From: a virus
Length of the DNA stretch: 64,000 bases
Direction: 5' to 3' (one strand)
Virus record (IMG/VR): IMGVR_UViG_3300023440_000003
Location: 1-64,000 of that record
Below are positions 18,493-52,800 of this stretch, in pieces (the first letter of the stretch is position 1; every line of letters begins with the position of its first letter). The position numbers were made by a program, and so were the translations under genes. The notes beneath the pieces were generated by a model that did not search any database, had not been told where the DNA came from, and saw nothing but the letters and a program-made list of their open reading frames with translations.

Positions 18493-21346
18493 GGCTTGTT
18501 TTGGTATTCATAGCTATTTCAAGAAGTTGTTTGATTTCTTTTATACTATTATCTATCTGAGCAAGCCATTCTTTTTCACTTTTCTTTTCAACTTCTGCTT
18601 TTTTAAGTTCAGCTATCATTTCTTCAGGCTCTTTTAATGGTGTTACTTCGTATTTTTCATATTTAGCTACGATTCTTTTGATGTGTTGTGCTGTTTGTTC
18701 ATCCAGTCTGTAAGTTTTGACTAATCTATCTACTTCTTTTATTGATTGATCTTTAGGTAGTGCAGTAATATTAATTAATTCTCGTGTGAGAGCATGACGT
18801 AGTTCTGGAGCCATAGTTTCAGGTAATGCAGCTTCGAGTTCTCTTCCAAATCGTTCCATACGTTTTGCAGCTACTTCTATAGTTTGTTCAGTGAGTCCTT
18901 GTTTTAACTCAGCCGCTGTGAGAAGCAATCCTGATTGTTGAATTTTGTTTGCTATATCAGCAGGCAATTTGCCTTGAGAAAGGAGATTTTCCATTTCCTG
19001 TCTTCTCTGATTTAATAATTCAAATATTGGACTTGAACTGCCGTAGGTCATATATGCCATGATTCTTGCACCTGTAGGATCTAGGCCATTAAATATCTGA
19101 AATAATTTAACTGCTCCTTGAAATCTTGCTTTTGGATCAGAAATATTCACACCAAGAGCTTTTAGCATCAAGTTTGTATGAGTTTTCAGAGCGGAGAAAA
19201 ATCTATAGCTTTGCATTAATGTCTTTTTTGGTGCTGTTTTTATTTTGAATAACATATCCAACATACCACCTTCATTAAAGATTTGTCCCGCGGCACCAAA
19301 TAGATCAAACACGTTAGTAAATCCTCCTGCTGGAGTTTTTCCTACTTCTGCAGCCAACGCCGCCACAAAAGCTAAAGGTGATTGCATTACTATTTGTGCA
19401 CCTGTTCTGAAAGCTGTCATGGCTGCCTGAACAGGTCCTCCCATATTGACAAAAACATCTCTATACAGCCGTTCTCCTCTATAAGCTGCACCAAGAACTC
19501 TACCTAATATAGCATTATTCATTTGTATTAACGGACTTGCTTCTTGAGCAGTGACTACTTGAGGATAATAACCTATATTTCTACCCATGGATAAGATCAT
19601 TTGTACTAACGGCATAGCTCTTTCCGGTCCTACACCAAACGGAGCGAAACGTTGCAATCCTGGTCTAATTATGTTAAACCACGCAGTGGGTTGTATTCCT
19701 AATCTTGTGCCTACAAGTATGGCTTCTCTGGTAACTACTTCTGGAGGTAAATTATATCTTACTGCAACTTCTCCCATACTAAGTGCTAATTGTCTCATCA
19801 CCGCTGAAGCTGATTCGGGTCCGTACCATGGTAAGATTTCCCCAGTTCGGATAAGTGCTTCCATAAGTTCTGGAGATCTTTCTATTAAAACGTTTTCTAG
19901 TGCATGTGTTACTTTATTTATACGTTCAACGTATTTTTGTACCAATTCTCTGGATCTTAATCTGTAATACAGGCGGTTATATACTTGTCTACCAAAATCT
20001 ATTTGTCTCTGAGCCTCTTCTGCACCCATTAATGGTGTCCAGATAGTTTCTAAGAACGGAGCTGCCAGATACTCATACCATCCTCTTAACATTCCTGTAG
20101 CAAATAGTCCTGCTCTTGTAGCAAGTCTTTCATACCATGCATATTCTCTAAATAATGGTTGATACATTCGTATGCCCTGTGGAGTAGTCCTAATTGTGAG
20201 TCCTTGCATAATTCCTGGAACCATCGCTGCGGGCACTTCTCTTAGCAAGTTTCGTTGCACTGTTCTTCTTACACGTGCTTCCATATTCACACGTCTAAGT
20301 ACATCAGTTATTAATTGACTGCTTCCATAGAATTGGGAAGATTTCACGTATCCAATAAAGTTTTGATATATTTCTGCGACACTTTGTACATCCATACCAA
20401 AAGGCACTATGCCTTGAGGATTCCATAACCAAGAAGCAGCCTGGGCCCATCTTTGCAGTATATCTGGATTTCTGTATAACTCCTCAATAGCTTCTATTCT
20501 TCCCATCATTTCTCTGGAACTTATTCCATATCTTCTTGCAAGTTCACTCACACGTCTCACATAAGTTGGCATCCATGATCGTACGAAAAAGCCCCATTCT
20601 TCTGGAGTAGCAAATATTGTTCTTGCAACTGGTCCTGCGAGTATTGCCCCTATACCAATTCCTCCAGCGATAGCGCCTGCAACTGGCAGTACAGTCCCTG
20701 CAGCCGGGACTAAAGCACCTAATTTAGACAGTTTGCTCCATAATAACATTCCACCAATAATTCCCATCAATCCTTCTTGTTGAAAACCCAGTAATCTTAA
20801 GAACATATTGCCTGGAACAATTGTGGGAATTTGTGTCCATCCCATTAATGCAGATCCTATACCGAACAGCATTCCAGAAGTATTTACCCATGGAAATACA
20901 TTTATTGCAGCCCATCCTATTCTTTCTCTCCAGGAAAGCTGGCCAAATGGGATTGTTAATTGTTCACGTATTCTTTCTCTGGCTTCATACACAACTCTTT
21001 GTGCTTCCGAAAATTGTGTTAAAGTACCTAAATAACTGAATGGACTTATTCCCATAGTATACATAAATTTAGCGGCAGGCGATGCCTGAAAAGGCAACAT
21101 AACCCTGGCAGCGTAATCCATTGCAGAAGGACCAAACTGTACTCCGAACCCACCAAGTGTGGCCGCACTTAAACCAGGGGCCATTCCATATCCTGGCATT
21201 AGAGGCATTCCTGTCATCATAGCAGCAGTCACAGGGCCAACAGTAGTTTGCATTTGTTGAATAGTCTGACGGCGGAGTTTCATTAACTCGGTTTGTACGT
21301 TTGAAGTATCAAGTTCTACTGCTATGCGATAAGTATCTTCTGGCAT
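18482..21346 (-). CDS. tape-measure-like protein
   Basis: 954 aa; N-terminal RIAVELDTSNV...LMKL; helical, G/A/M-rich with hydrophobic stretches; C-terminal LAQIDNSIKEIKQLL. Confidence 0.55.
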   Translation of the reverse strand: MPEDTYRIAVELDTSNVQTELMKLRRQTIQQMQTTVGPVTAAMMTGMPLMPGYGMAPGLSAATLGGFGVQFGPSAMDYAARVMLPFQASPAAKFMYTMGISPFSYLGTLTQFSEAQRVVYEARERIREQLTIPFGQLSWRERIGWAAINVFPWVNTSGMLFGIGSALMGWTQIPTIVPGNMFLRLLGFQQEGLMGIIGGMLLWSKLSKLGALVPAAGTVLPVAGAIAGGIGIGAILAGPVARTIFATPEEWGFFVRSWMPTYVRRVSELARRYGISSREMMGRIEAIEELYRNPDILQRWAQAASWLWNPQGIVPFGMDVQSVAEIYQNFIGYVKSSQFYGSSQLITDVLRRVNMEARVRRTVQRNLLREVPAAMVPGIMQGLTIRTTPQGIRMYQPLFREYAWYERLATRAGLFATGMLRGWYEYLAAPFLETIWTPLMGAEEAQRQIDFGRQVYNRLYYRLRSRELVQKYVERINKVTHALENVLIERSPELMEALIRTGEILPWYGPESASAVMRQLALSMGEVAVRYNLPPEVVTREAILVGTRLGIQPTAWFNIIRPGLQRFAPFGVGPERAMPLVQMILSMGRNIGYYPQVVTAQEASPLIQMNNAILGRVLGAAYRGERLYRDVFVNMGGPVQAAMTAFRTGAQIVMQSPLAFVAALAAEVGKTPAGGFTNVFDLFGAAGQIFNEGGMLDMLFKIKTAPKKTLMQSYRFFSALKTHTNLMLKALGVNISDPKARFQGAVKLFQIFNGLDPTGARIMAYMTYGSSSPIFELLNQRRQEMENLLSQGKLPADIANKIQQSGLLLTAAELKQGLTEQTIEVAAKRMERFGRELEAALPETMAPELRHALTRELINITALPKDQSIKEVDRLVKTYRLDEQTAQHIKRIVAKYEKYEVTPLKEPEEMIAELKKAEVEKKSEKEWLAQIDNSIKEIKQLLEIAMNTKTSLNW

Positions 21347-24300
21347 TTATGGCCTCTTAGGTTCAAAAGGTTTAATATTGGATATTATATTTTCCATACT
21401 GGCTTGTTCTGGTTTAAATTCATCTATGTTTGTTACTGGCACACTTAAGAGACCTGTTTCTAGATTCATCGAAAATAATCCTCTGTAGCTTCCACCATAT
21501 TTCATTGGTGATATATCTAATCGAATTTGTCCTTTGCCTGGCTTTTTTGTAATAGTGTATTTATCTGGTGCGCCACTTGCCGTTATAAATTGTTGTAATT
21601 TTCTCTTTATCATATCTCTAGCTTCGTCGATAGTTCGTTTTTTCTTTAAATAGCCTATGACATAAAAACCTCTTCCTCCTGAGAATCTAACTTCCACTTG
21701 TTTAATGTCTGGATCTTTTTTCATGAAATCTCTTACCTTTTTTGTTACTTCTTTGATTTGATCAAAATCTACATCAGGCCCTGGATCGATATCTACAACT
21801 AATCTATCAGTTATAGCACCAAATGATGGATGAAATTCTACAGTTCTTCTTTCAATCCAGTATTGAAAGTCTTCTGGATTGTCTACATCTCCTTTATGTT
21901 GTTTTATTTTTATTTTTTCTTCATCTATATTACGTCTTAGTACTATCCTGGAAGGATCAAATGCTTGCATTACAATTACCTGAGGGAATTGTTTCAATTC
22001 ATTAAGAAGATTTTTTCTGATTTTTGGTTGCATATAGAGTAAGAATATATCTCTTTTGGTAAAACTACCGAATGGTGCGTCTACTATGATATTATCCCAT
22101 CTTTCTGGATCGGGAGTTTTTGATGCTACTTTTTCTATAAATTCTTTGCCCTTTTCAGGATGCCATCCTATAAAAACTGGCTGTCTAAGTGCTCCATCGG
22201 GGTATTGTCCGGCTGCTCTGATTTTTGCCACTCGACCTATATATTTTTCTGGATGTTCTGCCATATCTTTTCTTTGTTCCATTGTAAATCCTGCACCTAC
22301 TCTTCCTACCACGGGCCCGTTAGGTTCGAAAGAGTATTCTATACCTCCAGCATATTTGCCTCTCCAGTTTGGAGAAGAGGATTCAAAGATACCTACTACA
22401 TAAACATCATATTCAGGTTTGAATTTTGCTTTTACAGGTTTTTCTACATCTTCGAGATTTTGTATTACTATACCTTCTTTAGATTCAGGTATGGATCCGG
22501 TACGTATTGCATCAAAAAGCATTTGCTTTTCTTCTTTGGTAAACGCTGCTTGTGGAGGTTCTGCATAAGGAAAGTGTTGAACGAATTCATTAATCAGCCT
22601 TAGTTTTTCTTTGTAAGGTAATTCTTTTTCTACATATTGGTCTTTAAATTTTACAACATCAAATACCGTAAGGCGGGGCTGGACTTTTTTGCTTTCAATA
22701 AGTTTTCTACTTATTGGAGTCTCGCTATGGGTAACACTTACTATTTCATTAATTGGTTTAGCCTGTCCTTTTTCATCTGTAAGAAAAAGTTCGGCTCTGA
22801 ATATACTTCCTTTGAATGATGAAGGCACTTTGAATTTTCCATAAGGAGGAACTTTATATGTATGTTCTATTAATCCCGTACTTGTGCTTACAGCCCATCT
22901 TGGTGAAAAGAGCTTGACTTTACCATCTGGTTTTACATAAAGAAGAACTTGTACACCATCATCTTTTCTGGTAAATATGTATCTATCATCATTTAGGAAT
23001 CTTTTAATTGCTTCTTCTGGAGTTATTTCTTTGTATTTTTCTTTACCTTCCGGAAGGTCCAGTAGTTTATCTCTGGTATCGGTAACATTTATCATGTACC
23101 AGTTATCACCTTGACCTTTAGTTAACAGGTATTCTTGAGTTTCATTTGCTCGATATATGTTGAATCTTATATGAGAATCATCTGCACTTAAGATGTCAGC
23201 TTTACCTCTGAACTCTATGGTTACTGTTCCTGCACCATAGTATCCATCAGGAATGCGTCCTGAAAAATTCATATAGTCCATTGTGTGATCTGGTTGTCTT
23301 ATGAATAATCGACGTTCTCCTGGCATAGGCCAGTATCTTCCCGCCCAACTGTAAGCTATTTTTGTTTTAGGATCTCCAAGTCTGAAATCGAGGTGGCTAT
23401 TCGATACAAGCAAACTGCCTGCAAAGTAATTATGATTATCTTCTACTTCAATATCATATCGTTCTAGTGGTTTTGACGGATTTACTTTTATATACTTTAT
23501 CTCTCTGATAGGTACAGGCAATAAGGTCATTTCATTATGCGTTGCAGCTGTCCAGTTGTAATATCCTATTTCATCTAAAGGACATTTATATTCCATGCCT
23601 TTAGCGATGTAAGGAGCTACTAATTTTAGGAATCTTTCTATACTTTTTTTCCTGTTTATGGAAATATAGTAGTAGGTTTTGCCGTTAGGATAAGTTCTAT
23701 TTCTTAGAGTAGCGTGGATTTCGTATTTTTCTCGTAGCCATGTAATAATAAGTTGTACATCTTCTTTAGGAAAGCCGAGAGTGTGTAAGAGTATTTGCTG
23801 ATGCGGACTAATTCTTTTTCCTCGGTCTGATCTAGGTCTACGTTTGTATCGAGCTGAATGTTTAATAACATAGTCGCCTCCCGGAACATATTGACCATCA
23901 TCCATATACCATACTGCTAATGCTCTTTCGTCTATCATATCTAATATTTCCTTAGTGATACGTTTCTTGCCGTCTTTGTATAAGATATTTCTGAGTAGAT
24001 AAAACCATGGATGTTTTATTCTGAAATAGTAATAGTCTTGTCTTTTGCCTTTACCTTGTCTAATTTCGACGTCCATTTTAAACGTTGGAGAGAGAAGTTT
24101 GTAACCAAAATCGAAATACTCTTTGTTGACTTGTCCCCAATTGAATGTCCAAGGAGTAGTCTGCGGAATAGACCCATCACCTAATAGCGCACCTAAGATA
24201 AATTGTTTTTGATCTTCTGTTAAATTTTGCACAGGCATCAACATATAATCCCCTTTACGAACATCTTTAGCCAGTTTTGGGATAATTTTTCCATCCACAT

Positions 24301-24778
24301 ATACATACACTTTATGGTTTCCTGTCAGTGTTATTGACCCACGTCTCGAGTGGAATCTAAGTCTTATCCATTCAGTGGATGTTCCATTTTTATACCAGTT
24401 AACCACCCTTTTCCATTCCAGTTTACCTGTTCTAAAATTGTAGCTTAGGACTTTTATAGGTAGACGTTTGTTGACTATTTCTTGAATTCTTATTCTTCCC
24501 TTGTCAGTGATAATTCGTGTGCCTCCCGTCAAACATCCAGCACGTTTAGCATTATGCTTTTGAATGACGCATTCCCATTCTACTGGCGGATCATCAGGTC
24601 CAAGTTTTATAGTCGGAATTGGGGATTTTTGTTCAAAATTTATAATTCCAGTTATAGCAGTATCATTGTATCTGGATTGTGCTCTCTGTATTAATTTATC
24701 CGCTTCTTGCAATAATGGGTCTTCAAGTACAGCCAGATTGTTTAGATTTTCCGCTATTTTAGTTAATTTTTTCCACAT
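21347..24778 (-). CDS. ligD: LigD-like NHEJ enzyme (phosphoesterase, ATP-dependent ligase, primase-polymerase) with intein
   Basis: PE domain VIQKHNAKRAG/SHLDFRL; ligase RKDDG, EGIVI, KAK, GRVGAG, LRQPVF; Pol domain DRLVVDIDP, SGGRGFYV. Confidence 0.85.
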   Translation of the reverse strand: MWKKLTKIAENLNNLAVLEDPLLQEADKLIQRAQSRYNDTAITGIINFEQKSPIPTIKLGPDDPPVEWECVIQKHNAKRAGCLTGGTRIITDKGRIRIQEIVNKRLPIKVLSYNFRTGKLEWKRVVNWYKNGTSTEWIRLRFHSRRGSITLTGNHKVYVYVDGKIIPKLAKDVRKGDYMLMPVQNLTEDQKQFILGALLGDGSIPQTTPWTFNWGQVNKEYFDFGYKLLSPTFKMDVEIRQGKGKRQDYYYFRIKHPWFYLLRNILYKDGKKRITKEILDMIDERALAVWYMDDGQYVPGGDYVIKHSARYKRRPRSDRGKRISPHQQILLHTLGFPKEDVQLIITWLREKYEIHATLRNRTYPNGKTYYYISINRKKSIERFLKLVAPYIAKGMEYKCPLDEIGYYNWTAATHNEMTLLPVPIREIKYIKVNPSKPLERYDIEVEDNHNYFAGSLLVSNSHLDFRLGDPKTKIAYSWAGRYWPMPGERRLFIRQPDHTMDYMNFSGRIPDGYYGAGTVTIEFRGKADILSADDSHIRFNIYRANETQEYLLTKGQGDNWYMINVTDTRDKLLDLPEGKEKYKEITPEEAIKRFLNDDRYIFTRKDDGVQVLLYVKPDGKVKLFSPRWAVSTSTGLIEHTYKVPPYGKFKVPSSFKGSIFRAELFLTDEKGQAKPINEIVSVTHSETPISRKLIESKKVQPRLTVFDVVKFKDQYVEKELPYKEKLRLINEFVQHFPYAEPPQAAFTKEEKQMLFDAIRTGSIPESKEGIVIQNLEDVEKPVKAKFKPEYDVYVVGIFESSSPNWRGKYAGGIEYSFEPNGPVVGRVGAGFTMEQRKDMAEHPEKYIGRVAKIRAAGQYPDGALRQPVFIGWHPEKGKEFIEKVASKTPDPERWDNIIVDAPFGSFTKRDIFLLYMQPKIRKNLLNELKQFPQVIVMQAFDPSRIVLRRNIDEEKIKIKQHKGDVDNPEDFQYWIERRTVEFHPSFGAITDRLVVDIDPGPDVDFDQIKEVTKKVRDFMKKDPDIKQVEVRFSGGRGFYVIGYLKKKRTIDEARDMIKRKLQQFITASGAPDKYTITKKPGKGQIRLDISPMKYGGSYRGLFSMNLETGLLSVPVTNIDEFKPEQASMENIISNIKPFEPKRP
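23399..24535 (-). mobile_element. LAGLIDADG intein in the LigD PE domain (379 aa)
   Basis: Starts CLTGGT; block B TGNH; LGALLGDG and WYMDDG; ends YDIEVEDNHNYFAGSLLVSN|S. Confidence 0.9.
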
Positions 24779-28709: not shown

Positions 28710-29108
28710 GTGAATGTTATGTTTGAGTACATTACTCCAGAGAACTTAGCTATTTTAGATATCGTATCGGATTTACACATCCAAGAAAATGACCCAGTTT
28801 ATACGTTAATGAAGTATGCTGACGCGCAACGTGCGGCTTTGATTGCTGGAACTGGACTTAGTTTAGCTGGTGGAGGAGGTTTGCTGTATGATTTGATCAG
28901 AAAAAGACTGATTCAGAAAAAATTACAACAGCTTGGAGGCACCCCTATAGCATCATTGCCTGCGACTACCGGAGGATTGAGAATTTCTGATTTGTTGGGA
29001 CGACGCAGTTCTAATTTGCTTTCAATACTTAAGCGGAAAAAACATTTGTGGCCTGTGTTTGCTCTTACTTTAGGTGGAGGTCTTTTAACTTATGGTTTAT
29101 TGGATTAG
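28710..29108 (+). CDS. KxA/glycine-zipper protein
   Basis: Acidic leader ending LMKYA; two Gly-rich helices. Confidence 0.65.
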   Translation: MNVMFEYITPENLAILDIVSDLHIQENDPVYTLMKYADAQRAALIAGTGLSLAGGGGLLYDLIRKRLIQKKLQQLGGTPIASLPATTGGLRISDLLGRRSSNLLSILKRKKHLWPVFALTLGGGLLTYGLLD

Positions 29109-29128
29109 ATCTTTAAGGAGGTGAATTT

Positions 29129-29965
29129 ATGGATCCAAAACTTTTAAGAGCACGAACTTTGTCAAGCAGATTATTGGATGAATATATAAGATTGAAAGGT
29201 CTTTCTGAAAAAGCCAGGTTAGTATCAGAACATGCCATGAAAGATTTGCGAAGAGCACCACAGCAATTCATACCTGAATGGGGTCAAACTCTATCACAAT
29301 TAGAATCTGAATTTTCTAGGATGTATCGGGTTATGCGAACTTTACCGACGGAAACTGTTGAAGCCTTGCGTCAATATCATAAGGCAGTTCCTAAAGTGTT
29401 TAGTCATCCATTACCTTTAGCTTTAGGTGTATTGGGATTAGGTTTAGGATATCTTGCCAGCCGCAAGGACTATCAAGTTCCAGGATATATTCCTCTGGGT
29501 TTGGGTACTATAGGTTTAGCAGGAACAGCGGGAAGCCTGATGAAAGCACGTTCAGCGCATAGCGCTGCCGCGGATTTACTTTCATTGTTACCTGATATTG
29601 ATTTCTCCAGAGTGTTTCCAAGAGATGCTGGCGCTATGCCAGATTTTACTAATGTTGTTAGGAATGTAGAAGAATATTTAAAAGCCCGACAGAATTTAGC
29701 TGAAGCTTTTGCTAAAAATCGGGCTGCTCGTAGTTATAGTAGTGCTTTAAGACAGTTGAGATTAAATAAGAGTTATGTTGAGGAATTATTATCCAGAATG
29801 GGACGTATGGATTATGATATTACGCGTTTTATGGAATTGAGTCGTGATTTTATATCTCGCCAGTTAGAAGCCAATAGGTTACGCAGGTTGGGGCGTCTTT
29901 TCTGGATGGCTTCTCTTCCGTTGTTTACTTATTATGCTGGCACGAAGTTATTCAACAGGCAGTAA
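29129..29965 (+). CDS. Arg-rich membrane protein with glycine zippers
   Basis: SD AAGGAGGTG; LALGVLGLGLG, LGLGTIGLAG; C-terminal TM. Confidence 0.65.
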   Translation: MDPKLLRARTLSSRLLDEYIRLKGLSEKARLVSEHAMKDLRRAPQQFIPEWGQTLSQLESEFSRMYRVMRTLPTETVEALRQYHKAVPKVFSHPLPLALGVLGLGLGYLASRKDYQVPGYIPLGLGTIGLAGTAGSLMKARSAHSAAADLLSLLPDIDFSRVFPRDAGAMPDFTNVVRNVEEYLKARQNLAEAFAKNRAARSYSSALRQLRLNKSYVEELLSRMGRMDYDITRFMELSRDFISRQLEANRLRRLGRLFWMASLPLFTYYAGTKLFNRQ

Positions 29966-33490: not shown

Positions 33491-33919
33491 ATGAGAAGGA
33501 TTGATTATATAGTAATTCATCATTCTGCAAGTTCTTACGGTGATTCAAAATTAATAGATAGATGGCATAGAGAAAGAGGATTCAAAAAGATAGGTTATCA
33601 CTATATCATTTTAAATGGCTTTAGAAAAAATAGCCGGGAATACGAAGTAGCTTTTGATGGTTTTATAGAACCTGGAAGAAAATTATCAGAAATAGGTGCA
33701 CACGTGAAAGGATATAACAAGAATTCTATAGGCATATGCCTTATAGGAAATCATTTGTTTACGTTAAATCAATTCATAAGTTTGAAAATTCTTGTTAAAG
33801 AGCTAAAAAATAAATTTCCTACTGCTAAGGTGGTAGGTCATTGTGACCTGGATCCAGTAAATAAACCTGACTGCCCAGGATTTGATGTTGATACATTTAT
33901 AGCTGAAGTTTTGGATTAA
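33491..33919 (+). CDS. N-acetylmuramoyl-L-alanine amidase endolysin (T7 lysozyme-like)
   Basis: IVIHHSA, IGYHY, GAHVKGYNKNSIGICLIG, GHCD, CPGF. Confidence 0.92.
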   Translation: MRRIDYIVIHHSASSYGDSKLIDRWHRERGFKKIGYHYIILNGFRKNSREYEVAFDGFIEPGRKLSEIGAHVKGYNKNSIGICLIGNHLFTLNQFISLKILVKELKNKFPTAKVVGHCDLDPVNKPDCPGFDVDTFIAEVLD

Positions 33920-33928
33920 TCTTTCATA

Positions 33929-34198
33929 CCAGGGAGGATCCCAGTAGTCCCCCTTGGCCGGGGGGCTCGGGGCACTACGGGTCTAGCCCCACCCCGCCCG
34001 TGGCCCTGAGAATCCTGGGATCGAAGAGGCTGTATGAGTAGGAGGGGCGCCCGGTAGGGGGTAGCCTCTCCGCTGCCCTGCGGTAGGTCCCACCTACCGC
34101 AGGGAAGGCTGACTGGGGACCCGGGACCCGGTCAGCCCAGGGTCAGCGTCGGACCGGCCTGGTCCACCGGTGGCGCTGACTTGGAGTTTTTTTTTTTT
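33929..34198 (+). ncRNA. unclassified GC-rich structured RNA ending in a U12 tract
   Basis: Abrupt GC-rich island; stems 33937-44/34015-22, 34025-33/34061-69, 34076-88/34092-104, 34107-17/34127-37, 34142-50/34172-80; G-U pairs favour the plus strand. Confidence 0.75.
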
Positions 34199-34240
34199 AG
34201 CTATTATTTTATTTTAGACTTTTGATAAAATAGCTAAAAA

Positions 34241-34474
34241 ATGAAGGTTCTAGATTTAGAATTTATACGCAATAAGAAAAGGTGGAAGTACTTTTTATAT
34301 AAACTTTCTTTTTACATGATTTTATTATCTACGGCGATATTTTTTGGAGCAGTTCTTTTTGCACTTATAGAAGGATTGGTTAAGTATAGATTATGGAAGT
34401 TAGTTGGTGTAGCAGCGTTAGGCGTGTTTGTATTTTTTATTATATTCCATTACACTTGTGAGGAATTTGATTGA
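34241..34474 (+). CDS. two-TM membrane protein (holin candidate)
   Basis: 77 aa, two hydrophobic helices, near endolysin. Confidence 0.45.
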   Translation: MKVLDLEFIRNKKRWKYFLYKLSFYMILLSTAIFFGAVLFALIEGLVKYRLWKLVGVAALGVFVFFIIFHYTCEEFD

Positions 34475-34794
34475 TTTGATAGCGTTTCTAATAGTTGTTT
34501 TATTTTTATGAATCTCCTAGGATTTCCATTAGGTATATATTCTATACCATTTTCTGTAATTTTAGGGATATAACCGTCTAGCATTTTTTGATAAAGTTGT
34601 TTCATTTCTTTTGGTGATTTGTTTAGTTTGATCATCAGAAAATGATACAACAGACTATCTAAGTATTTAAGAATTTTCACAGATTTACTTCTTCTTACTA
34701 CATGGCATTTTTCAATGTATATCTCAATGTAATCAGTTACTCCTTTTTTGACTAATTCTTGTCGATACAAGAATTTTTTGAATTCTTGAATCAT
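34450..34794 (-). CDS. hypothetical protein, paralog of 36339-36689
   Basis: EFKKF, YIEKCH, LDSLLYHF, GYIPK shared. Confidence 0.65.
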   Translation of the reverse strand: MIQEFKKFLYRQELVKKGVTDYIEIYIEKCHVVRRSKSVKILKYLDSLLYHFLMIKLNKSPKEMKQLYQKMLDGYIPKITENGIEYIPNGNPRRFIKIKQLLETLSNQSNSSQV

Positions 34795-45604: not shown

Positions 45605-46855
45605 TCAATTTGCATTTGTACACAAAATTAATACTTTATCTGGATACTTTGAATGTCTAAACACTAATATTTGAACAAATCCTGATATATTTCGTGGGGT
45701 TAGTATTATTTTTTGAGTTTTGGGGTTAAGTTTCTCTAAAAGTGCACTTATCTTTCTATACAAGGCTATATATTCTGTGGTTGACCCCAGTAACCTGAAG
45801 CCTTTATTATATAGCTTTTTGATAAGATTTCTTAAATCGTCCTTATATTTGTATTGTATTATTGCTATGTTTATATCTGGCTTATTTATTTCAGCATTCT
45901 CGAAGAATCTGTCGTATAGGTGAATGGTATGTCGACCATAAAGTTCAACGCCAGCACTTTTTGCTGCCCATAATATAGGGTTTATGTATCCATAATAACC
46001 GTTCTTTTTATTATGGTCTCTTTCTTTATCTAAAAATACAGCAGCTTTTTTGGATAATGATCTGGGAAGTTTTAACATTACTTTATCGTCAGTTTTTACG
46101 AAATATAATCCAAGAAATTTGAATTCCTCATTTTTCCTTATTGGTGTGATACGGATCTTAAATTTATAACGTCCAAATACAGACTTAATGTAGTTTATGA
46201 TTTTTTCATCACTTAAACTAGATTGAACTCCTATTAAAAAATCATCAGCATATCTGAATGTCACCATCGATAGCGATCTATTATATGCTTTTGTAATCAC
46301 ATTAAGTCTGTAAGTTAAGCCCGTAGTAAGTATTCCGGCAAGTATAGGTGATGTAGGTAATCCATAAGGGATATGACCATTTATGAAACAATACGTTTTA
46401 ATTACGTCTATGAATCTATCTATATCCATACCTAACTGCAACTTATTTACCTTAGCTATAAAATTTATTGAATCGTCCAATGCGACGTCATAAGTTTCAT
46501 ATAATTTTTTTGGGAGAACATATTTATATAGGTCTAATCTGTCAGGAGTTATTGATTCGAAGTAATTTATTACATCCACTTTAAAAAATCTTCTGTCATC
46601 TTGCAGTATATGAAAGAGTTGTAGGAATTTTTGGCCTGAATGTACTGATGAGATAGCGAAATCAGTACAGTTAGTTTCGACATATTTTAGATATATGATG
46701 TAGTGTGTACTTAGAGTGTTATGCAAAATTTTTAGAACTTTTTCGTAAGGACCTAACGGTATATATATTTTTTTAAACTTATCTTTCTTCTTTATTTGTC
46801 TGACTCTATACACTTTGGGTATTTCTTTCTTGAAAATTTTTGTTTCAAACTCCAT
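45605..46855 (-). CDS. reverse transcriptase (retron-like, unclassified)
   Basis: KVDVINYFESI, HIPYGLPTSPILA, FRYADDFLI, FKFLGL; SD AGGAGGTG. Confidence 0.85.
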   Translation of the reverse strand: MEFETKIFKKEIPKVYRVRQIKKKDKFKKIYIPLGPYEKVLKILHNTLSTHYIIYLKYVETNCTDFAISSVHSGQKFLQLFHILQDDRRFFKVDVINYFESITPDRLDLYKYVLPKKLYETYDVALDDSINFIAKVNKLQLGMDIDRFIDVIKTYCFINGHIPYGLPTSPILAGILTTGLTYRLNVITKAYNRSLSMVTFRYADDFLIGVQSSLSDEKIINYIKSVFGRYKFKIRITPIRKNEEFKFLGLYFVKTDDKVMLKLPRSLSKKAAVFLDKERDHNKKNGYYGYINPILWAAKSAGVELYGRHTIHLYDRFFENAEINKPDINIAIIQYKYKDDLRNLIKKLYNKGFRLLGSTTEYIALYRKISALLEKLNPKTQKIILTPRNISGFVQILVFRHSKYPDKVLILCTNAN

Positions 46856-46899
46856 GCATCACCTCCTTTTCTACTTCTTATATCTCTAAATATGCTAAA

Positions 46900-49800
46900 A
46901 TGTTCAAAGAAATGGTCAAGGAATTCATTCAATTTGTCAAGTCAGTATTTCCGATAGCCACACAGAATCGTGAGATTAAACTGGATAATGTCTATACAGA
47001 TGCTTCCAAAATACCCGATGTATCTGATTATCAAATCCAAAAAAGATACAGACTTGAAGGCCGAAGTTTAAGTGTACCGGTTTATGCAGATTTTACTCTG
47101 TATGAAAAAGGCAAAGTTGTTGCTAAAGCACAGAAGTTGCTAATCGCTCGCGTACCGTTAAAACTTCCTAGAGGAACTTATCTGTTTAAGGGTAATGAGT
47201 TCTTTGTTGCAAATCAGCTTCGTTTGAAGCCAGGAATTTATGTCAGAATTAGAGAAAACGGAGAAGTGGAGGCCCATTTCAATTTAGCTAAGTGGACTTT
47301 TAAAGCTTATTTTAATGGAAGTAAAGTTTATGCTAAGTTCACAAGAGGTCCTGCTATACCTTACTATACATTACTGAAGCTATTTGGTGCTTCTGAAGAT
47401 GAGATTAAAAATGCATTTGGCGAACTATATAATGAGAACATTTTATATGACGAAGATGCTATTCTTGGGTGGTATCGTGCATATTATGGAGAAGGTACTA
47501 AGGAAGAAGCTGTAAAAACATTCAAAAGTATATTATCCTCCGGTTACAGGTTTGATCCGGAAATTTCCAGGCATCTTTTAAATATAGAAGCATCAAACAT
47601 TAATAAAGATGTCCTGCTTGCAGCTTTAAAAAAACTTATCGCAGTACGGAGAGGTGAGAAAGAACCTGATGATAGAGATGCTTTGTTTTTTAAACAGCTA
47701 TTGGAAGAAAGCGATATATTAAGTGAACATTTTCATAATATGAAATCAAAAGTTATTTTTAAAATACGAAGAAATCTAGTATTAAAAGACAAAATAAGAG
47801 ATATTGTTCCTATAGCTGTATTTCAGAGTGTTGTAGACAATGTTTTTACTAAAGATCTTGTAAATCCTTTAAAGCAAACAAATCCAGTAACCATTGCAGA
47901 AAACAATTCCAGAGTAACTATTTTTGGAGAAGGAGGTATTAAGTCAGAATATGCAGTGCCTTATCAGGCTAGAGCACTTAATCCGTCGCATTTTGGTATT
48001 GTAGATCCAGTAAGGACTCCAGAATCTTCAAAGGTAGGGGCTGTATTATTTAGAACAATTGGAGCTGGTAAAGATCCGAAGACTGGTCTACCAGCAACTG
48101 AAGTTTTAGATGTGAAAACAGGAAAGCTTAAACGGATAACATCAACTGAATTTTTTAATTCAAGGGTTGCTTTTCCTGACCAAATTAAAGAAGTAAAAAA
48201 TGGTAAGGTAGTTTTTAAGAACAAGTCTCAGGTAAAAATACTATACCGTGGAAATATTGAAATAGTTCCTGCATCTAAAGTGGATTATGTTGTGCCTAAC
48301 TACATGAATGTTTTTACTGTTTCGACCCTATTTTTACCTTTTTTACAATCATTACACCCTAACCGTGCTTCTAAAGCAGCAAACACCATAACACAAGCAC
48401 TTCCATTAAAATACAGGGAACCTCCTTTGGTCCAAAGCGCAATATCAGAAAATTTATCTATGGTGGATATTGTAGGCAGGCAATATTCAGTGAGATCTCC
48501 TGTGGATGGAGAGATAAAATCGGTTAAGAATAATGTGATAGTCATCAAAGATAAAAAAGGAAAAGAGCATAAAATATCTTTAGCTGATTATCTTCCATTG
48601 AACCAAAATAGTTTCATCTCTATGGAAATTAAAGAAAATATAAAACCTGGCGTAAAGGTAAAAAAGGGAGATTTGCTGGCAGATACTAATTTTACAAAAG
48701 ATGGTCAGTTGGCGTTAGGAGTGAATGCTATTACTGCTTTAATGCCGTTCAAACATTTAAATTTTGAGGATGGTATTGTGGTATCAGAGTCTTTTGCTAA
48801 AAAGCTTACTTCTCAACGTTTATTTCACTTTCGTTATCCTTTAGGTTCTGATGTAAAAATTGACAAAGAACTTTATCGATCACTTTATCCTCATGAATTA
48901 CTTGAAGACAATTATAAAAAGTTGGATGAGGATGGAATAATAAAGAAAGGAGCAGTAGTTAAAGATGGTGATATATTAATAGCGGGCTTAGTAAAAAAGA
49001 AGGAAAGTAAAATAGACGAAATAATTGCTCGGTTAAACAGACGTTTAGTTCAACCCTGGGTAAAAAAGCCATTAATTTGGGATAAAGAGTTTGATGGCAT
49101 AGTAAAAGACGTAATTAAGACAAAACAGTTTATATCTATAACTGTTCTTACTGAAGAACCAGCAATAGTTGGAGACAAATTGACAAACTCTCATGGTTCA
49201 AAAGGAGTCATTGTGCACATAATTCCTGATGATCAAATGCCTAAACTTCCGGATGGTCGAACTGTAGAGGTAATCATAAATCCTGTCTCTATTCTTGGAA
49301 GAAATAATCCATCTCAGGTTTATGAAATGGTAGCTGGAAAAGTAGCTGAAAAACTAAAACAGCCTTTAAAAATTCCAGCATTTGGAGTAGATGACACTCA
49401 TAAGTTATTAAAAAATCTCACCAAACAATATGGGGTTTCGGATACTGAAACTTTAATTGATCCAGTTACCGGAAAGAAAATCCCCAATGTTATGGTTGGT
49501 CCTATGTACATTTATAAACTGGAACATCAAGTAGAAGAAAAAATGTCAGCCAGATACAAAGGAGCCTATGATCAGTGGGATATGACTCCAGCAAAAGGTG
49601 TTGATGAACCTGGACAGGCTGTAGGGCTTATGGAAATATATGCTTTATTGGCTCATGGTGCAGGAAATGTATTAAAAGAAATGGCTACATGGAAGTCAGA
49701 GCGTAATCCTTTATTCTGGGAGGCCATAGAAAATAACTTACCTCCTCCGCCCCCAAAGACTACATTTGTTACTAAAAAATTCGAGAACTTATTGAGAGCT

Positions 49801-52800
49801 GCTGGAATTGATGTAAAAAAAGAAGGGCATCTCGTAAGGATAATGCCACTTACTCAAAGCCAGGTTAAATCTCTCACACAAAATCGTTTCATAAAAAATG
49901 CCAAGATGGTAGTAGCTGGTACTTTAAAAGAAGAAAGTGGTGGTCTTTTTGATCCAGAACTAACTGGTGGTTTACGTGGAGATAAATGGGCTGCTATTAA
50001 GTTACCGGATAAGTTACCTTCACCTATCGTATTGCGTGTGTTTAGCTTATTATTGAATATGAAAGAAAAAGATATTAAAGATATAATTCTTGGTGTTAAA
50101 AAAATTCAGGGAATGTCTGGTTCTGAAGCTATTCTCAAACTGTTAAAGTCTAAATCTTTAGACGAATATTTGAAGCAAGCTCAGGATATGGCTGACGTAG
50201 CTAAGCGGTCTAATAATTTGAACGAGTTAAATAAAGCTAACTTGATTATACGTTTTATAAAATACATGAAGGAGAATAACATTAAATGGGAGGAATTCTT
50301 TCTCGATCGCTTGCCGGTACTCCCTCCTCAATTCCGTCCTGTGTATGTTGATAAACATAACAGGTTATTTCATTCAGATTTTAATCTTGTATACAGAGAT
50401 ATTAAATTACTGGCGGACCAGATCCAGAGAGCAAAGCAGGAAGGTTTACCTGAAGACGAGATTAACAAAATGAAGAAAGATTTATATGAATCTATTGAAA
50501 TTCTGTATGGTCTGGCGGATCCTTCTTCTAGATATTATGGTAAACGTAAACCCAGAGGAATACTTGACTACATTCATGGACCAAAACCTAAAGAAGGTTA
50601 CTACCAGCACAAAGTACTCCGTAAAACTCAGGATTTATCTGGACGCTCTGTTATTGTTCCTAATCCTGGCCTCCATCCAGATGAAATCGGTATCCCAGAG
50701 GAAATGGCGTGGAAGATATTTGAACCTTTTATTTTAGCTAAACTTAAATCAGAGTTTGCTATGTCTCCTGCTGAAGCAAGGATCGAACTGGCTAATCGAG
50801 GTGATAAGGCCAGAAAAGCTTTGGAATTGGTCGCCAGCGAACGGTTAGTTATTGTTAATCGCGCACCTTCACTTCATAAATACAATATGCTCGCTTTTAA
50901 ACCTAAAATTGTTCCAGGACATGCTATACATTTTCCAAACGTCGTAGTATCTATGCAAAGTGGTGATTACGATGGCAACTCGTTAGCTGGTGATGAATAT
51001 GTGATTTATTCGTTGAAAGATGAAATATATTTTCGTCCTATTAAAGACTTTCCTAGGGAAGATTCTCCGTACAAGATTAGTAAAAGAGGTGTTAAATATT
51101 TTAAAGTTCCACCAGGCATCAAGGTTCTTGCCTATGATTATAATACAAACACCTTGAAGTGGGATAAGGTCAGTAGTTTTAGTGAACATCCAGTTCAGAA
51201 AGTTTATAAAGTTAAGACTTATCATGGAGCTTCGGCTGTAGTTACTGGAGATCATTCTTTACTTGTTTTTGATCCAAGAGATTATACTTTCAAACGTATG
51301 TCTCCTTTGGAGATAATGCGTAATAAAAACAGGCGTTTTTTTGTGGTCAGACCTAAGAAAATTCGTCCTCTCGTAGAGGTTCCGCGTATAAAATTAGGCG
51401 ATTTGGAGTTAGATTTGGATTTTGAACTTGGTTATTTAATTGGATGTTATGTTGGGGATGGTTGGGTTGACAATCGGAATGGTTTTTACATTGCTAGTAT
51501 GGATAACGGAATTTACGGTAAGCTTAAAAGACTAATAAAGCGGAAATTTAATGTGGCTATGAAAGCTAGAAAAGCTGTAACCAAGATTTTTAAGGGTTAT
51601 GAAGCAACTTCTAGAAAGTTATACGCTAATTTACCTAAGGAATTCAGACGATTTTTAAAAGAAAATTGTGGAAGCAAAGCTAGTGATAAAAAATTACCTT
51701 CTCCTATTTACTTTTGTTCGCCTGTTATTTTCAGATTAGGATTATTATCTGGTTTACTTGATACGGATGGTACAGTGCATCAATCTTCTGAAGGTAGGTT
51801 CACTATCCTTTATAATACTATTTCTGAAGTTTTAGCAGATGAAGTTAGAATATTAGCTCTTAGTCTTGGTATCAGATCTACGATTAAAAAGGTTAAGAAT
51901 ACAGATGGTGTTGAGTATTTTCAGATTATATTTTCCTGCAAGGATTTAGCTGAAGCTGTTTTTGGAAAAGGTATACACCTTAGACTATATCATACAAAGA
52001 AAAAGAAGATTCTGAGTAAGCTTTTTGAAGTAAAGCGAGATAAACGTTTCAATGGCAGTTTGTTCAATATTGTTCCTATATCTGAAGAGTTAATATATCT
52101 TTTGAATTATTCATATCGAAAAGGTTCTAGATTTTCAGCTGATTTCATCTTAGATACTATTAAGCGTGAATACGTTCCGAAGGAAATGATATCTTCTATA
52201 TTACATAATGTTCATCCTAGACATGAACATTTAAAAAAACAGTTCGAGTTACTTAAAGCTTTTATAGAGACAGATGATGTATGGTTTGATTTTATTACAG
52301 AAGTCATTCCGCAGCAGGAAGTTCCTACCTATGATTTAACTACAGAATCTAAGACTTTTCTGTGTGGTATAGATTTCATAGTTTATGATACTACTGCAAT
52401 ACATGTTCCAGTAACTCAAGAAGCTCTGCAGGATGCAGTAAAGCTTTTACCTTCTCAGAATTGGCTTCATGAGGGGCGTCCTAAAGAAATATGGCTTACG
52501 CCAAAGATTGAAGCAATATGGGGGCTCTATAAAATAACCCGAGACGGAAAAGATAAAAGCAAACAGTTTAAATTCAATAATGTAGATGATGCATTACGTG
52601 CTTTTCACAGAGGTGATATTGACATTACGGATACTGTTGTGATTAATAATCAAAAAACTACTTTAGGTAGAGCCTTAGTTAACCGTATTTTACCTAAAGA
52701 TTTCAGAGATCCTAATATTAAACTAGACAAAACCACTATAAATAAATTGATGCGGAATATTTTTGAAAAATATGGCGGTAAAGAAGGTGCCAGGGTTGCA

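What the first reader, a model, noticed from the sequence alone, without database searches (positions are those of the whole stretch)
33929..34198. Unclassified ~260-nt highly structured GC-rich RNA after the endolysin
Seen: a sharp GC-rich island in an AT-rich genome with at least five stems. These include a perfect 13-bp hairpin (34076-34104), an 8-bp long-range closing helix (33937-44/34015-22) and several G-U pairs, followed by T12. I could not find tRNA, tmRNA, SRP, RNase P or hammerhead signatures. Inference: a functional RNA, with GC enrichment suggesting a thermophilic host. Candidate roles are the trans-encoded template for the orphan RT, a packaging or structural RNA, an RNAP regulator, or an anti-defence decoy.
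Basis: partly seen in the sequence, partly recalled or inferred. Interest (0 to 1): 0.75.

Follow-up and report, generated by a model that had tools for sequence, protein, structure and literature searches.

The report
Orphan heat-stable folded RNA in phage
A 260-base GC-rich stretch between the cell-wall-cutting gene and the putative holin gene of an uncultured hot-spring-type phage most likely makes a very stable folded RNA that ends in a strong transcription stop. No other sequence I could search carries it, so its function remains a guess.

Summary
Window 33929-34198 is the only strong GC island (about 70% GC) in a 79.6-kb, 35% GC phage contig. It has no ORF and folds on the + strand into seven robust helices. 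These include an 8-bp helix closing a three-way junction, a perfect 13-bp hairpin and a terminator hairpin followed by T12. The fold beats all 200 shuffles (z -4.5). It is 22 kcal/mol better than the minus strand, with 17 versus 4 G-U pairs, and is predicted to persist at 75-85 C. It matches no Rfam family, tRNA or tmRNA.

The phage belongs to the known lineage with a fused beta-beta' RNA polymerase (mReC). Its nearest accessible relative comes from a Chinese hot spring, which fits a thermophilic host.

No homologue was found: not by blastn in GenBank phages and plasmids, not by three exact-motif scans of IMG/VR and GTDB, not in about 90 mReC fragments, not in 49 full mReC records, and not in the hot-spring relative. 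There is therefore no covariation evidence.

Nothing supports the reverse-transcriptase-partner idea. My best reading is a stable 3'-terminal RNA domain of the endolysin transcript. Its U12 terminator would insulate the putative holin gene, and its body has an unknown binding role. It is a real orphan of moderate interest.

The parts
33491..33919 (+). Upstream gene: 142-aa N-acetylmuramoyl-L-alanine amidase (endolysin). It is complete; its stop lies 17 nt before helix P1.
   Evidence: Pfam Amidase_2 E 3e-14, profile positions 3-130 of 131. Homologues are of the same length.
33889..33897 (+). Possible weak extended -10 promoter (TGATACATT) inside the end of the amidase gene. If used, the RNA would start near 33904. 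This is not significant on its own.
   Evidence: Regex TGnTAnnnT gives 4 hits in 1.3 kb; by my own rough base-frequency estimate (not a tool result) about 2-3 are expected. The consensus sigma-70 scan found nothing here.
33937..34022 (+). 5' domain: an 8-bp closing helix P1 around a three-way junction with hairpins P1a and P1b. P1b has a 13-nt C-rich loop, CUAGCCCCACCCC.
   Evidence: MFE and pair probabilities at 37-75 C.
34023..34040 (+). Purine-rich single-stranded linker GAAGAGGCUGUAUGAGUA, running on into AGGAGG. It carries two Shine-Dalgarno-like motifs and an AUG at 34034 that opens a 7-codon mini-ORF (MSRRGAR, stop 34055-57). Its meaning is unknown.
   Evidence: Unpaired in all folds; sequence read.
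34041..34071 (+). Hairpin P2 (8+4 bp, loop GGUAGG).
   Evidence: Pair probability 0.99 and 0.86.
34076..34104 (+). Hairpin P3: 13 perfect base pairs with a CCC loop.
   Evidence: (I1).
34107..34137 (+). Hairpin P4 (11 bp). Its 9-nt loop contains the self-complementary CCCGGG, which could allow loop-loop dimerisation (inference only).
   Evidence: (I6, I9).
34141..34198 (+). Intrinsic terminator: hairpin P5 (10+5 bp), a 5-nt spacer and U12. This is the longest U-tract among the clear terminators in the genome.
   Evidence: the two other clear terminators, at 534 and 67990, are single about 11-12-bp GC-rich hairpins followed by T6 and T7.
34193..34241 (.). Perfect 13-nt AT-rich inverted repeat (TTTTTTAGCTATT / AATAGCTAAAAAA). 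It spans the end of the T-run, a TGATAAAAT promoter-like site (34223-31) and the first base of the downstream start codon.
   Evidence: (I3). TTTTTAGCT occurs 9 times in the window against 2.6 expected.
34241..34474 (+). Downstream gene: 77-aa ORF with two hydrophobic segments, a putative holin. No family match. Its 3' end overlaps a convergent minus-strand gene (34450-34794).
   Evidence: sequence.

Best explanation
The element is transcribed from the + strand as the non-coding 3' end of the message that carries the endolysin gene. Alternatively it may be a roughly 295-nt transcript of its own, starting from a weak extended -10 site at 33889.

It folds into a very stable body: a three-way-junction domain plus three hairpins. 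It ends at hairpin P5 followed by U12, which stops RNA polymerase 43 nt before the putative holin gene.

Shown:
- The fold, its strand bias and its thermostability.
- The terminator signature.
- The gene context.
- Other operon ends in this phage manage with one short hairpin.

Inferred:
- The terminator insulates the putative holin from endolysin-operon transcription. The holin would then be expressed from its own promoter-like site at 34223, so lysis timing would be set separately.
- The roughly 200-nt body upstream of the terminator is more than termination needs. It would survive as a nuclease-resistant, heat-stable 3'-derived RNA that binds some protein or RNA partner still unknown.

I put about 0.8 on 'a real folded RNA from this strand' and about 0.4 on this particular combined role.
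For: - Unique GC island.
- + strand fold z -4.5 against -2.0 for the minus strand, with 17 against 4 G-U pairs.
- Helices have pair probabilities of 0.76-0.99 at 65 C, apart from the inner part of P5 at 0.60.
- MFE of -61.8 kcal/mol at 75 C against about -5 for background windows.
- P5+U12 fits the intrinsic-terminator pattern. The two other clear terminators in the genome (positions 534 and 67990) are single hairpins with T6 and T7, so U12 is the longest tract and the upstream 200 nt are surplus to termination.
- The element starts 10 nt after the amidase stop (helix P1 17 nt after it) and ends 43 nt before the 2-TM ORF.
- No class-B promoter motif (GnTATAAG) lies near it; there is only a weak TGnTAnnnT.
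- The downstream ORF has its own TGATAAAAT.
Against: - There is no homologue anywhere, so no covariation and no proof of selection on the fold.
- There is no expression data.
- A stabiliser or insulator role does not explain a junction-closed 5' domain.
- The identification of the 77-aa ORF as a holin rests only on size, hydrophobic segments and position.
- The promoter-like sites are low-information matches.
- The nearest relative (the JZ contig) has no such element, so the phage lineage does not need it.
Confidence: 0.4

Rival explanations
1. It is a free-standing trans-acting non-coding RNA that partners a phage enzyme. Candidates are a template or primer for the retron-like reverse transcriptase at 45605-46855, a 6S-like regulator of the phage's own fused RNA polymerase, or a decoy against host defence.
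For: - It is the only GC-rich RNA-like island in a genome whose RT has no adjacent ncRNA. The RT lies head-to-head with the RNAP, with almost no spacer.
- The RT scores best against retron RT models.
- The junction-closed 5' domain and the palindromic CCCGGG loop look like binding surfaces.
- Two other RT-bearing relatives also carry GC-rich non-coding elements some kb from the RT: G007 19258-19356 (z -5.9) and L179 5650-6300.
- The RT-less JZ relative has neither element.
Against: - The RT is 11.4 kb away on the opposite strand. From established knowledge, known retron, DRT2, DRT9 and DGR RNAs are all encoded next to their RT.
- No a1/a2 repeats close the whole molecule (direct reading only, not formally tested).
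- No second copy or complementary target exists in the genome.
- The model R1 finds nothing in RT-bearing relatives.
- The L179 island is not significantly structured (z about -2).
- The fold is multi-branched, not the 6S rod with a central bubble.
- Co-occurrence rests on three genomes.
Confidence: 0.2
2. It is a cis-acting leader that gates transcription into the putative holin gene. The model is the short pR'-tR' '6S' transcript of phage lambda, which Q lets polymerase read through into the lysis genes, or the put RNA of HK022, which makes polymerase terminator-resistant. Under this reading, read-through of U12 would set the time of lysis.
For: - The position is right: a strong terminator lies 43 nt before the 2-TM ORF, which is the last + strand gene before a convergent operon.
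- A possible promoter lies just upstream.
- The 13-nt perfect repeat links the U-tract to the start-codon region (I3).
- The P4 and P5 arms are repeats of each other, GCUGAC / GGUCAGC (D4 and D10).
Against: - No competing antiterminator exists. When either P4 arm is blocked, P5 still forms.
- There is no riboswitch, T-box or leader match.
- The downstream ORF has its own promoter-like site after the terminator.
- No Q-like or N-like factor was identified.
- There is no conservation to test.
Confidence: 0.15
3. It acts as DNA, not RNA. It could be a replication origin or R-loop primer site, a packaging site, a recombination or attachment site, or a protein-binding palindrome cluster.
For: - P3 is a perfect 13-bp palindrome and P4 contains GGGACCCGGG/CCCGGGACCC. 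Such perfect repeats carry no strand information.
- It sits at a convergent transcription junction.
- G-clusters on the non-template strand would favour R-loops.
Against: - There is a strong strand asymmetry: 22 kcal/mol, 17 against 4 G-U pairs, z -4.5 against -2.0.
- There are no iterons or AT-rich unwinding repeats inside the island.
- No integrase or resolvase occurs in the contig.
- The terminase genes are 25 kb away.
- No tRNA or tmRNA fragment is present, as an attP would often carry.
Confidence: 0.08
4. It is a functionless piece of foreign GC-rich DNA: a captured fragment, a decayed mobile element or an assembly chimera that merely happens to fold.
For: - It is a singleton, absent from the closest relative.
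- Any 70% GC sequence folds strongly in absolute terms.
- In another thermophile-like relative (G002), the single GC island sits after a TnpB-like ORF (read by eye from the translated sequence, not tested), which would make it a mobile-element RNA.
Against: - The fold beats composition-matched shuffles (0 of 200).
- The element fills an intergenic gap precisely and ends in a terminator in the transcribed orientation.
- It has no terminal inverted repeats or target duplication.
- It has no ORF remnant.
- It has no similarity to anything in phage, plasmid or GTDB searches.
- No transposase is adjacent.
Confidence: 0.07

Closest known systems
GC-rich RNA-gene islands in AT-rich (hyper)thermophile genomes (Klein, Misulovin & Eddy, PNAS 2002; cited from memory, title terms confirmed as cited in papers)
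   Same: A sharp GC island in an AT-rich genome with no ORF and a stable fold. This is exactly the signal used there to find new structured RNAs. It implies selection for heat-stable pairing.
   Different: Those were cellular genomes and most candidates were confirmed by northern blots. This case is a phage singleton without expression data or relatives.
Phage lambda pR'-tR' short '6S' transcript, and HK022 put RNA (established knowledge)
   Same: A short, terminated, non-coding transcript placed directly before a lysis gene; a terminator sits between the regulator and the lysis gene.
   Different: No sequence or Rfam similarity. No Q-like protein was found. Here the endolysin lies upstream of the element rather than downstream, and no antiterminator alternative is evident.
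3'-terminal stabilising hairpins and RNase III sites of phage T7 polycistronic mRNAs (established knowledge)
   Same: GC-rich hairpins between phage genes that define and protect mRNA 3' ends.
   Different: T7 sites are single irregular hairpins. This element has seven helices, including a closed three-way junction, and other operon ends in the same genome have only one hairpin.
Retron msr-msd ncRNA
   Same: A structured RNA of a few hundred nt in a genome that has a retron-like RT.
   Different: It is not adjacent to the RT and lies on the opposite strand. No a1/a2 closing repeats were seen (by eye only). No family match.
Large or ornate phage-borne orphan RNAs (ROOL RF03087, GOLLD RF01998), phi29 pRNA (RF00044) and 6S RNA
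   Same: Phage-encoded, multi-helix and of unknown or structural function.
   Different: No covariance-model match to any of them even at E<=10. It is much smaller than ROOL or GOLLD. The phage has a terminase, so it has no need of a pRNA. The fold is not a 6S-type rod.

Membership tests
Any Rfam 15 family (including tRNA, tmRNA, RNase P, SRP, 6S, group I/II introns, riboswitches, T-box, HEARO/omega RNA, pRNA, ROOL, GOLLD, ribozymes) | Covariance-model score at or above the family's gathering threshold | tested here: not met
   no hit at gathering score. At E<=10 there are only hairpin-level microRNA or snoRNA noise hits, far below threshold. ARAGORN finds nothing.
Bacterial intrinsic (factor-independent) terminator | GC-rich hairpin followed within a few nt by a U-tract on the transcribed strand | tested here: met
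   P5 (10+5 bp), GGAG spacer, then U12. The generic scanner missed it because the stem-to-T spacer is 5 nt and the loop is irregular.
Retron ncRNA (msr-msd) | Encoded immediately upstream of, and on the same strand as, the retron RT | tested here: not met
   The RT is at 45605-46855 on the minus strand, 11.4 kb away.
Retron ncRNA (msr-msd) | Inverted repeats a1/a2 pairing the 5' and 3' ends of the whole RNA, with the priming G beside the stem | tested here: inconclusive
   Read by eye only; no dedicated search for a1/a2 was run. No predicted helix joins the 5' and 3' ends: P1 closes only the first 86 nt, and the 5'-3' pairing seen at 37 C is A-U/G-U pairing with the U-tract and is lost at 75 C.
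DGR template repeat | A near-identical variable-repeat copy elsewhere in the genome | tested here: not met
   Longest shared or complementary word with the rest of the genome is 10 nt, which is chance level.
Riboswitch or attenuator expression platform | A mutually exclusive antiterminator helix competing with the terminator | tested here: not met
   Constraint folding with either P4 arm blocked leaves P5 intact.
TnpB/IscB omega RNA | Overlaps or abuts a tnpB/iscB gene | tested here: not met
   The upstream gene is an Amidase_2; no transposon nuclease is adjacent. There is no HEARO hit.
Conserved structured RNA family of the RNAP-encoding (mReC) phage lineage | Homologues with compensatory changes in related phages | tested here: not met
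   Model R1 found only the window itself at 305 bits. The best other hit scored 15.9 bits (E about 0.05), in a repeat hairpin of L181. Nothing was found in 49 full records or in the hot-spring MAG.
attP with captured host RNA gene end | Integrase gene in the phage, and a tRNA or tmRNA fragment in the site | tested here: not met
   No tyrosine or serine recombinase in 79.6 kb, though the contig is only 44% complete. No tRNA or tmRNA signal.

The most novel reading that the evidence does not exclude
The RNA is the trans-encoded working partner of one of the phage's two unusual polymerases. It could be the template or primer RNA of the orphan retron-like reverse transcriptase, which in three lineage members sits head-to-head with the RNA polymerase gene. 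Or it could be a 6S-like RNA that tunes the phage's fused beta-beta' RNA polymerase. Either would be a new RNA-enzyme pairing in a thermophilic phage.
Probability: 0.08. Interest if true: 0.8.

Novelty: new member of a known kind. Interest (0 to 1): 0.42.

Why it matters
If it is transcribed and stable, this would be an uncatalogued, heat-stable structured RNA in a phage lineage that brings its own cellular-type RNA polymerase and, in some members, a reverse transcriptase. Little is known about gene regulation in these phages, none has been cultured, and no non-coding RNA has been described for them; the lineage paper, PMC7481178, mentions none.

The element also splits the lysis cassette (endolysin | RNA + strong terminator | putative holin). 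This is an unusual arrangement that could bear on how lysis is timed at high temperature.

As a singleton without covariation, its present value is that of a well-defined candidate for expression and structure probing, not a demonstrated new class.

Tried and rejected
1. Known RNA classes. Rfam at gathering score and at E<=10, and ARAGORN at normal and lax thresholds, gave nothing.

2. Homologues by sequence.
- blastn against GenBank phages and PLSDB plasmids gave none.
- Exact-motif scans of IMG/VR (two) and GTDB genomes (one) gave none, or one chance hit at an RBS.

3. Homologues by neighbourhood.
- 9 IMG/VR and 80 metagenome loci encode relatives of the amidase. None has a GC island or blastn match next to the gene.
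- The 444-aa neighbour, the helicase and the terminase have no IMG/VR relatives.

4. Homologues by lineage.
- The fused RNAP led to 87 IMG/VR loci and one hot-spring MAG contig.
- blastn, a GC-island scan, an intergenic fold screen and covariance model R1 found no relative.

5. A tempting resemblance to a 255-nt structured element in L092 (CCCAG...CUAGC...CUGGG around two hairpins). I rejected it as evidence because the same pattern is equally frequent in shuffled sequence: 6 observed against 2-8 in shuffles. MAFFT and R1 also give no support.

6. Coding: stops in all six frames.

7. Group I intron in the amidase: the amidase is full length, there is no Intron_gpI hit, and T12 reads as a terminator.

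8. Antisense or target search within the genome: only chance 10-mers.

9. Antiterminator alternative: not found.

10. Host identification through a glycosyltransferase search: no informative names.

I therefore could not fetch the contigs of the closest RNAP relatives (P0205 at 62% identity, P0206 at 50%, P0207 at 45%) or of the 65%-identical amidase P0002.

Full report
**What is there**

The window is the first 64 kb of a single 79,587-bp virus contig with 35.1% GC and no N. CheckV rates it 44% complete.

Between the stop of a 142-aa Amidase_2 endolysin (33491-33919) and a 77-aa ORF with two hydrophobic segments (34241-34474) lies a 320-nt gap. Its first 270 nt are 64% GC in 200-nt windows, and up to 74% per 100 nt. 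The flanks are about 30% GC. It is the only such island in the contig; the next-highest 100-nt window reaches 0.59.

The island ends in T12 at 34187-34198. All six frames contain stops.

**Fold**

On the + strand the 281-nt stretch folds at -156.6 kcal/mol. Shuffles average -130.8 (z -4.53), and 0 of 200 do as well. The reverse complement reaches only -134.4 (z -2.04).

The + strand fold uses 17 G-U pairs and the minus-strand fold uses 4. Selection on an RNA, but not on a DNA element, would leave this signature.

Seven helices are stable from 37 to 75 C. At 65 C their pair probabilities are 0.76-0.99, except the inner part of P5 at 0.60.
- P1 (8 bp) closes a three-way junction with P1a and the bulged P1b.
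- An 18-nt purine-rich linker follows.
- Then come P2, the perfect 13-bp P3, and P4, whose loop holds the palindrome CCCGGG.
- Last is P5, followed by GGAG and U12.

At 75 C the element keeps -61.8 kcal/mol, while random windows of the same genome average -5.3.

**What it is not**

- No Rfam 15 family matches at gathering score. At E<=10 only hairpin-level microRNA noise appears.
- ARAGORN finds no tRNA or tmRNA, even at lax settings.
- There is no second copy or complementary site in the genome. That excludes a DGR template and gives no antisense target.
- No integrase or resolvase is present, and no transposon nuclease is adjacent.
- The amidase is full length, so the element is not an intron interrupting it.

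**The phage**

The 2530-aa ORF at 46840-54432 is a fused beta-beta' multisubunit RNA polymerase carrying a LAGLIDADG intein. More than 1500 fused proteins of about 2000 aa on phage-sized contigs are related to it.

This is the RNAP-encoding Caudovirales lineage described in PMC7481178, which reports no non-coding RNA. Most other proteins of the contig have no PHROG or Pfam match.

The nearest relative I could fetch has 48% RNAP identity, 57% terminase identity and many shared genes. It is a 113.8-kb contig binned into an Aenigmatarchaeota MAG named JZ-1_201705. JZ-1 is a JinZe hot-spring site in Tengchong (PMC6783470).

The IVYWREL thermal index gives 54 C for this contig and 58 C for the JZ contig. 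The median over about 90 lineage members is about 10 C. The calibration is rough for phage proteomes, but the ranking supports a thermophilic setting. So do the two inteins and the heat-stable fold.

**Search for relatives of the RNA**

- blastn against GenBank phages and plasmids found nothing.
- Three exact-motif scans of IMG/VR and GTDB genomes found nothing, or a chance hit.
- 89 loci around amidase relatives contain no similar island.
- From the RNAP I collected 87 IMG/VR loci, three full relatives and the JZ contig, about 2.4 Mb in all.
- A covariance model built from the window sequence and its 80 robust pairs (R1) scores 305 bits on itself. Its best other score is 15.9 bits (E about 0.05), on an unrelated repeated hairpin in L181.
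- Forty-nine full records, nine of them at least 90% complete, and the whole hot-spring MAG gave nothing.
- The JZ contig has no non-coding GC island at all; its GC peaks are Gly/Pro-rich coding repeats. It also lacks the amidase and the RT.

The element is therefore a singleton.

**A near miss**

L092, a 30% GC relative, has a 255-nt GC-enriched intergenic element ending in T9 (z -5.1; no Rfam hit). It superficially shares a CCCAG/CUGGG helix around two hairpins with CUAGC in a loop. That pattern is equally common in shuffled sequence, and neither MAFFT nor R1 links the two. I treat them as analogous at most.

**Expression signals**

Three clear intrinsic terminators exist in the contig, at 534, 34187 and 67990. 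The other two are single hairpins of about 11-12 bp followed by T6 and T7. P5+U12 is therefore a terminator with the longest U-tract, and the 200 nt before it are surplus to termination.

No GnTATAAG motif lies near the element. It does sit before the helicase, the RT and the convergent operon.

A TGnTAnnnT match (TGATACATT) at 33889 could start a transcript of about 295 nt, but such matches occur at chance frequency. A second match (TGATAAAAT, 34223) lies between U12 and the 77-aa ORF. It sits inside a perfect 13-nt inverted repeat that links the T-run to the start codon.

Blocking either arm of P4 does not produce an antiterminator; P5 still forms.

**Reverse transcriptase**

The 416-aa RT (45605-46855, minus strand) scores weakly against retron RT models, far below family cut-offs. 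It lies head-to-head with the RNAP.

The same head-to-head arrangement recurs in L137/G007 and L179/G045. RT relatives occur in 6 of 53 other records. None of these carries an R1 match.

G007 has a 100-nt rod-plus-terminator RNA candidate 9.6 kb from its RT (z -5.9). L179 has a 650-nt GC-rich non-coding island 2 kb from its RT, but that island is not significantly structured.

This loose co-occurrence, together with the absence of both elements in JZ, keeps the RT-partner idea alive at a low level. Position, strand and the lack of any template-like copy argue against it, and I saw no closing repeats, though I looked for those only by eye.

**Reading**

Most likely (about 0.8) this is a genuine + strand RNA.

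The role I favour (about 0.4) has two parts.
- It forms the 3'-terminal non-coding domain of the endolysin message, and its U12 terminator insulates the putative holin gene.
- Its heat-stable body persists as a 3'-derived RNA with an unidentified binding partner.

The rivals are:
- a free trans-acting partner of the RT or RNAP, or a decoy (0.2);
- a lambda-6S/put-like read-through leader for the holin (0.15);
- a DNA-level site (0.08);
- inert foreign DNA or an artefact (0.07).

**Verdict**

The element is a new, orphan member of the known kind 'GC-rich structured RNA island in an AT-rich thermophile genome / phage-borne orphan ncRNA'.

Other agents in this scan have reported comparable GC-rich RNAs in vent phages that encode their own RNAP, on other DNA (not checked here). 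No sequence link to those was found.

Noticed in passing
window 46840-54432 (+): A 2530-aa single-chain beta-beta' multisubunit RNA polymerase with a LAGLIDADG intein in the beta' part. More than 1500 fused relatives of about 2000 aa lie on phage-sized metagenome contigs. This places the phage in the published RNAP-encoding Caudovirales (mReC) lineage.
   Followed up: partly
window 45605-46855 (-); L137 9057-9848 (= G007 28754-29545); L179 8325-9215: A retron-like RT lies head-to-head with the RNAP gene in three lineage members (about 25% identity between RTs). RT relatives are present in only 6 of 53 other records and absent from the closest relative (JZ contig).
   Followed up: partly
window 21347-24778 (-): A 1143-aa protein with an ATP-dependent DNA ligase region and an inserted LAGLIDADG homing-endonuclease (intein-like) segment. 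It is 52% identical to a JZ-contig protein.
   Followed up: no
L092 8060-8320 (+): A 255-nt GC-enriched (about 58% in a 30% GC phage) intergenic element closed by an 11-bp helix and ending in T9. Fold z -5.1, no Rfam match. It is a second orphan structured-RNA candidate in the lineage, 1.4 kb after the RNAP gene.
   Followed up: partly
L213 (G007) 19258-19356 (+): A roughly 100-nt G/C-run rod hairpin plus a clean terminator (GGGGGAG...CUCCCCC U8), z -5.9. It lies about 25 nt after a TGGTATAAG promoter-like motif and upstream of a LigD-like gene on the other strand. It is a small-RNA candidate.
   Followed up: partly
G002 (L108) about 115600-115880: The only GC island (63% in a 30% GC, thermophile-like relative) directly follows an ORF whose zinc-finger C-terminus looks TnpB-like by eye. 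It is probably the transposon's guide (omega/re) RNA.
   Followed up: no
L199 / G006:C2 (JAWBPV010000002.1, 113.8 kb): A contig binned into a hot-spring Aenigmatarchaeota MAG is a phage of this lineage, with RNAP, terminase and many shared structural genes. The archaeal bin assignment is probably a binning artefact, not a host call.
   Followed up: partly
window 34193-34205 / 34229-34241: A perfect 13-nt AT-rich inverted repeat joins the terminator T-run to the A-run before the start codon of the 77-aa ORF. TTTTTAGCT is over-represented in the window (9 observed against 2.6 expected).
   Followed up: partly
L179 5481-7030: A 1.5-kb stretch without ORFs longer than 85 aa contains a 650-nt segment of 53-63% GC in a 35% GC phage, 2 kb from its RT. 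It is not significantly structured (z about -2 on both strands) and has no Rfam match.
   Followed up: partly
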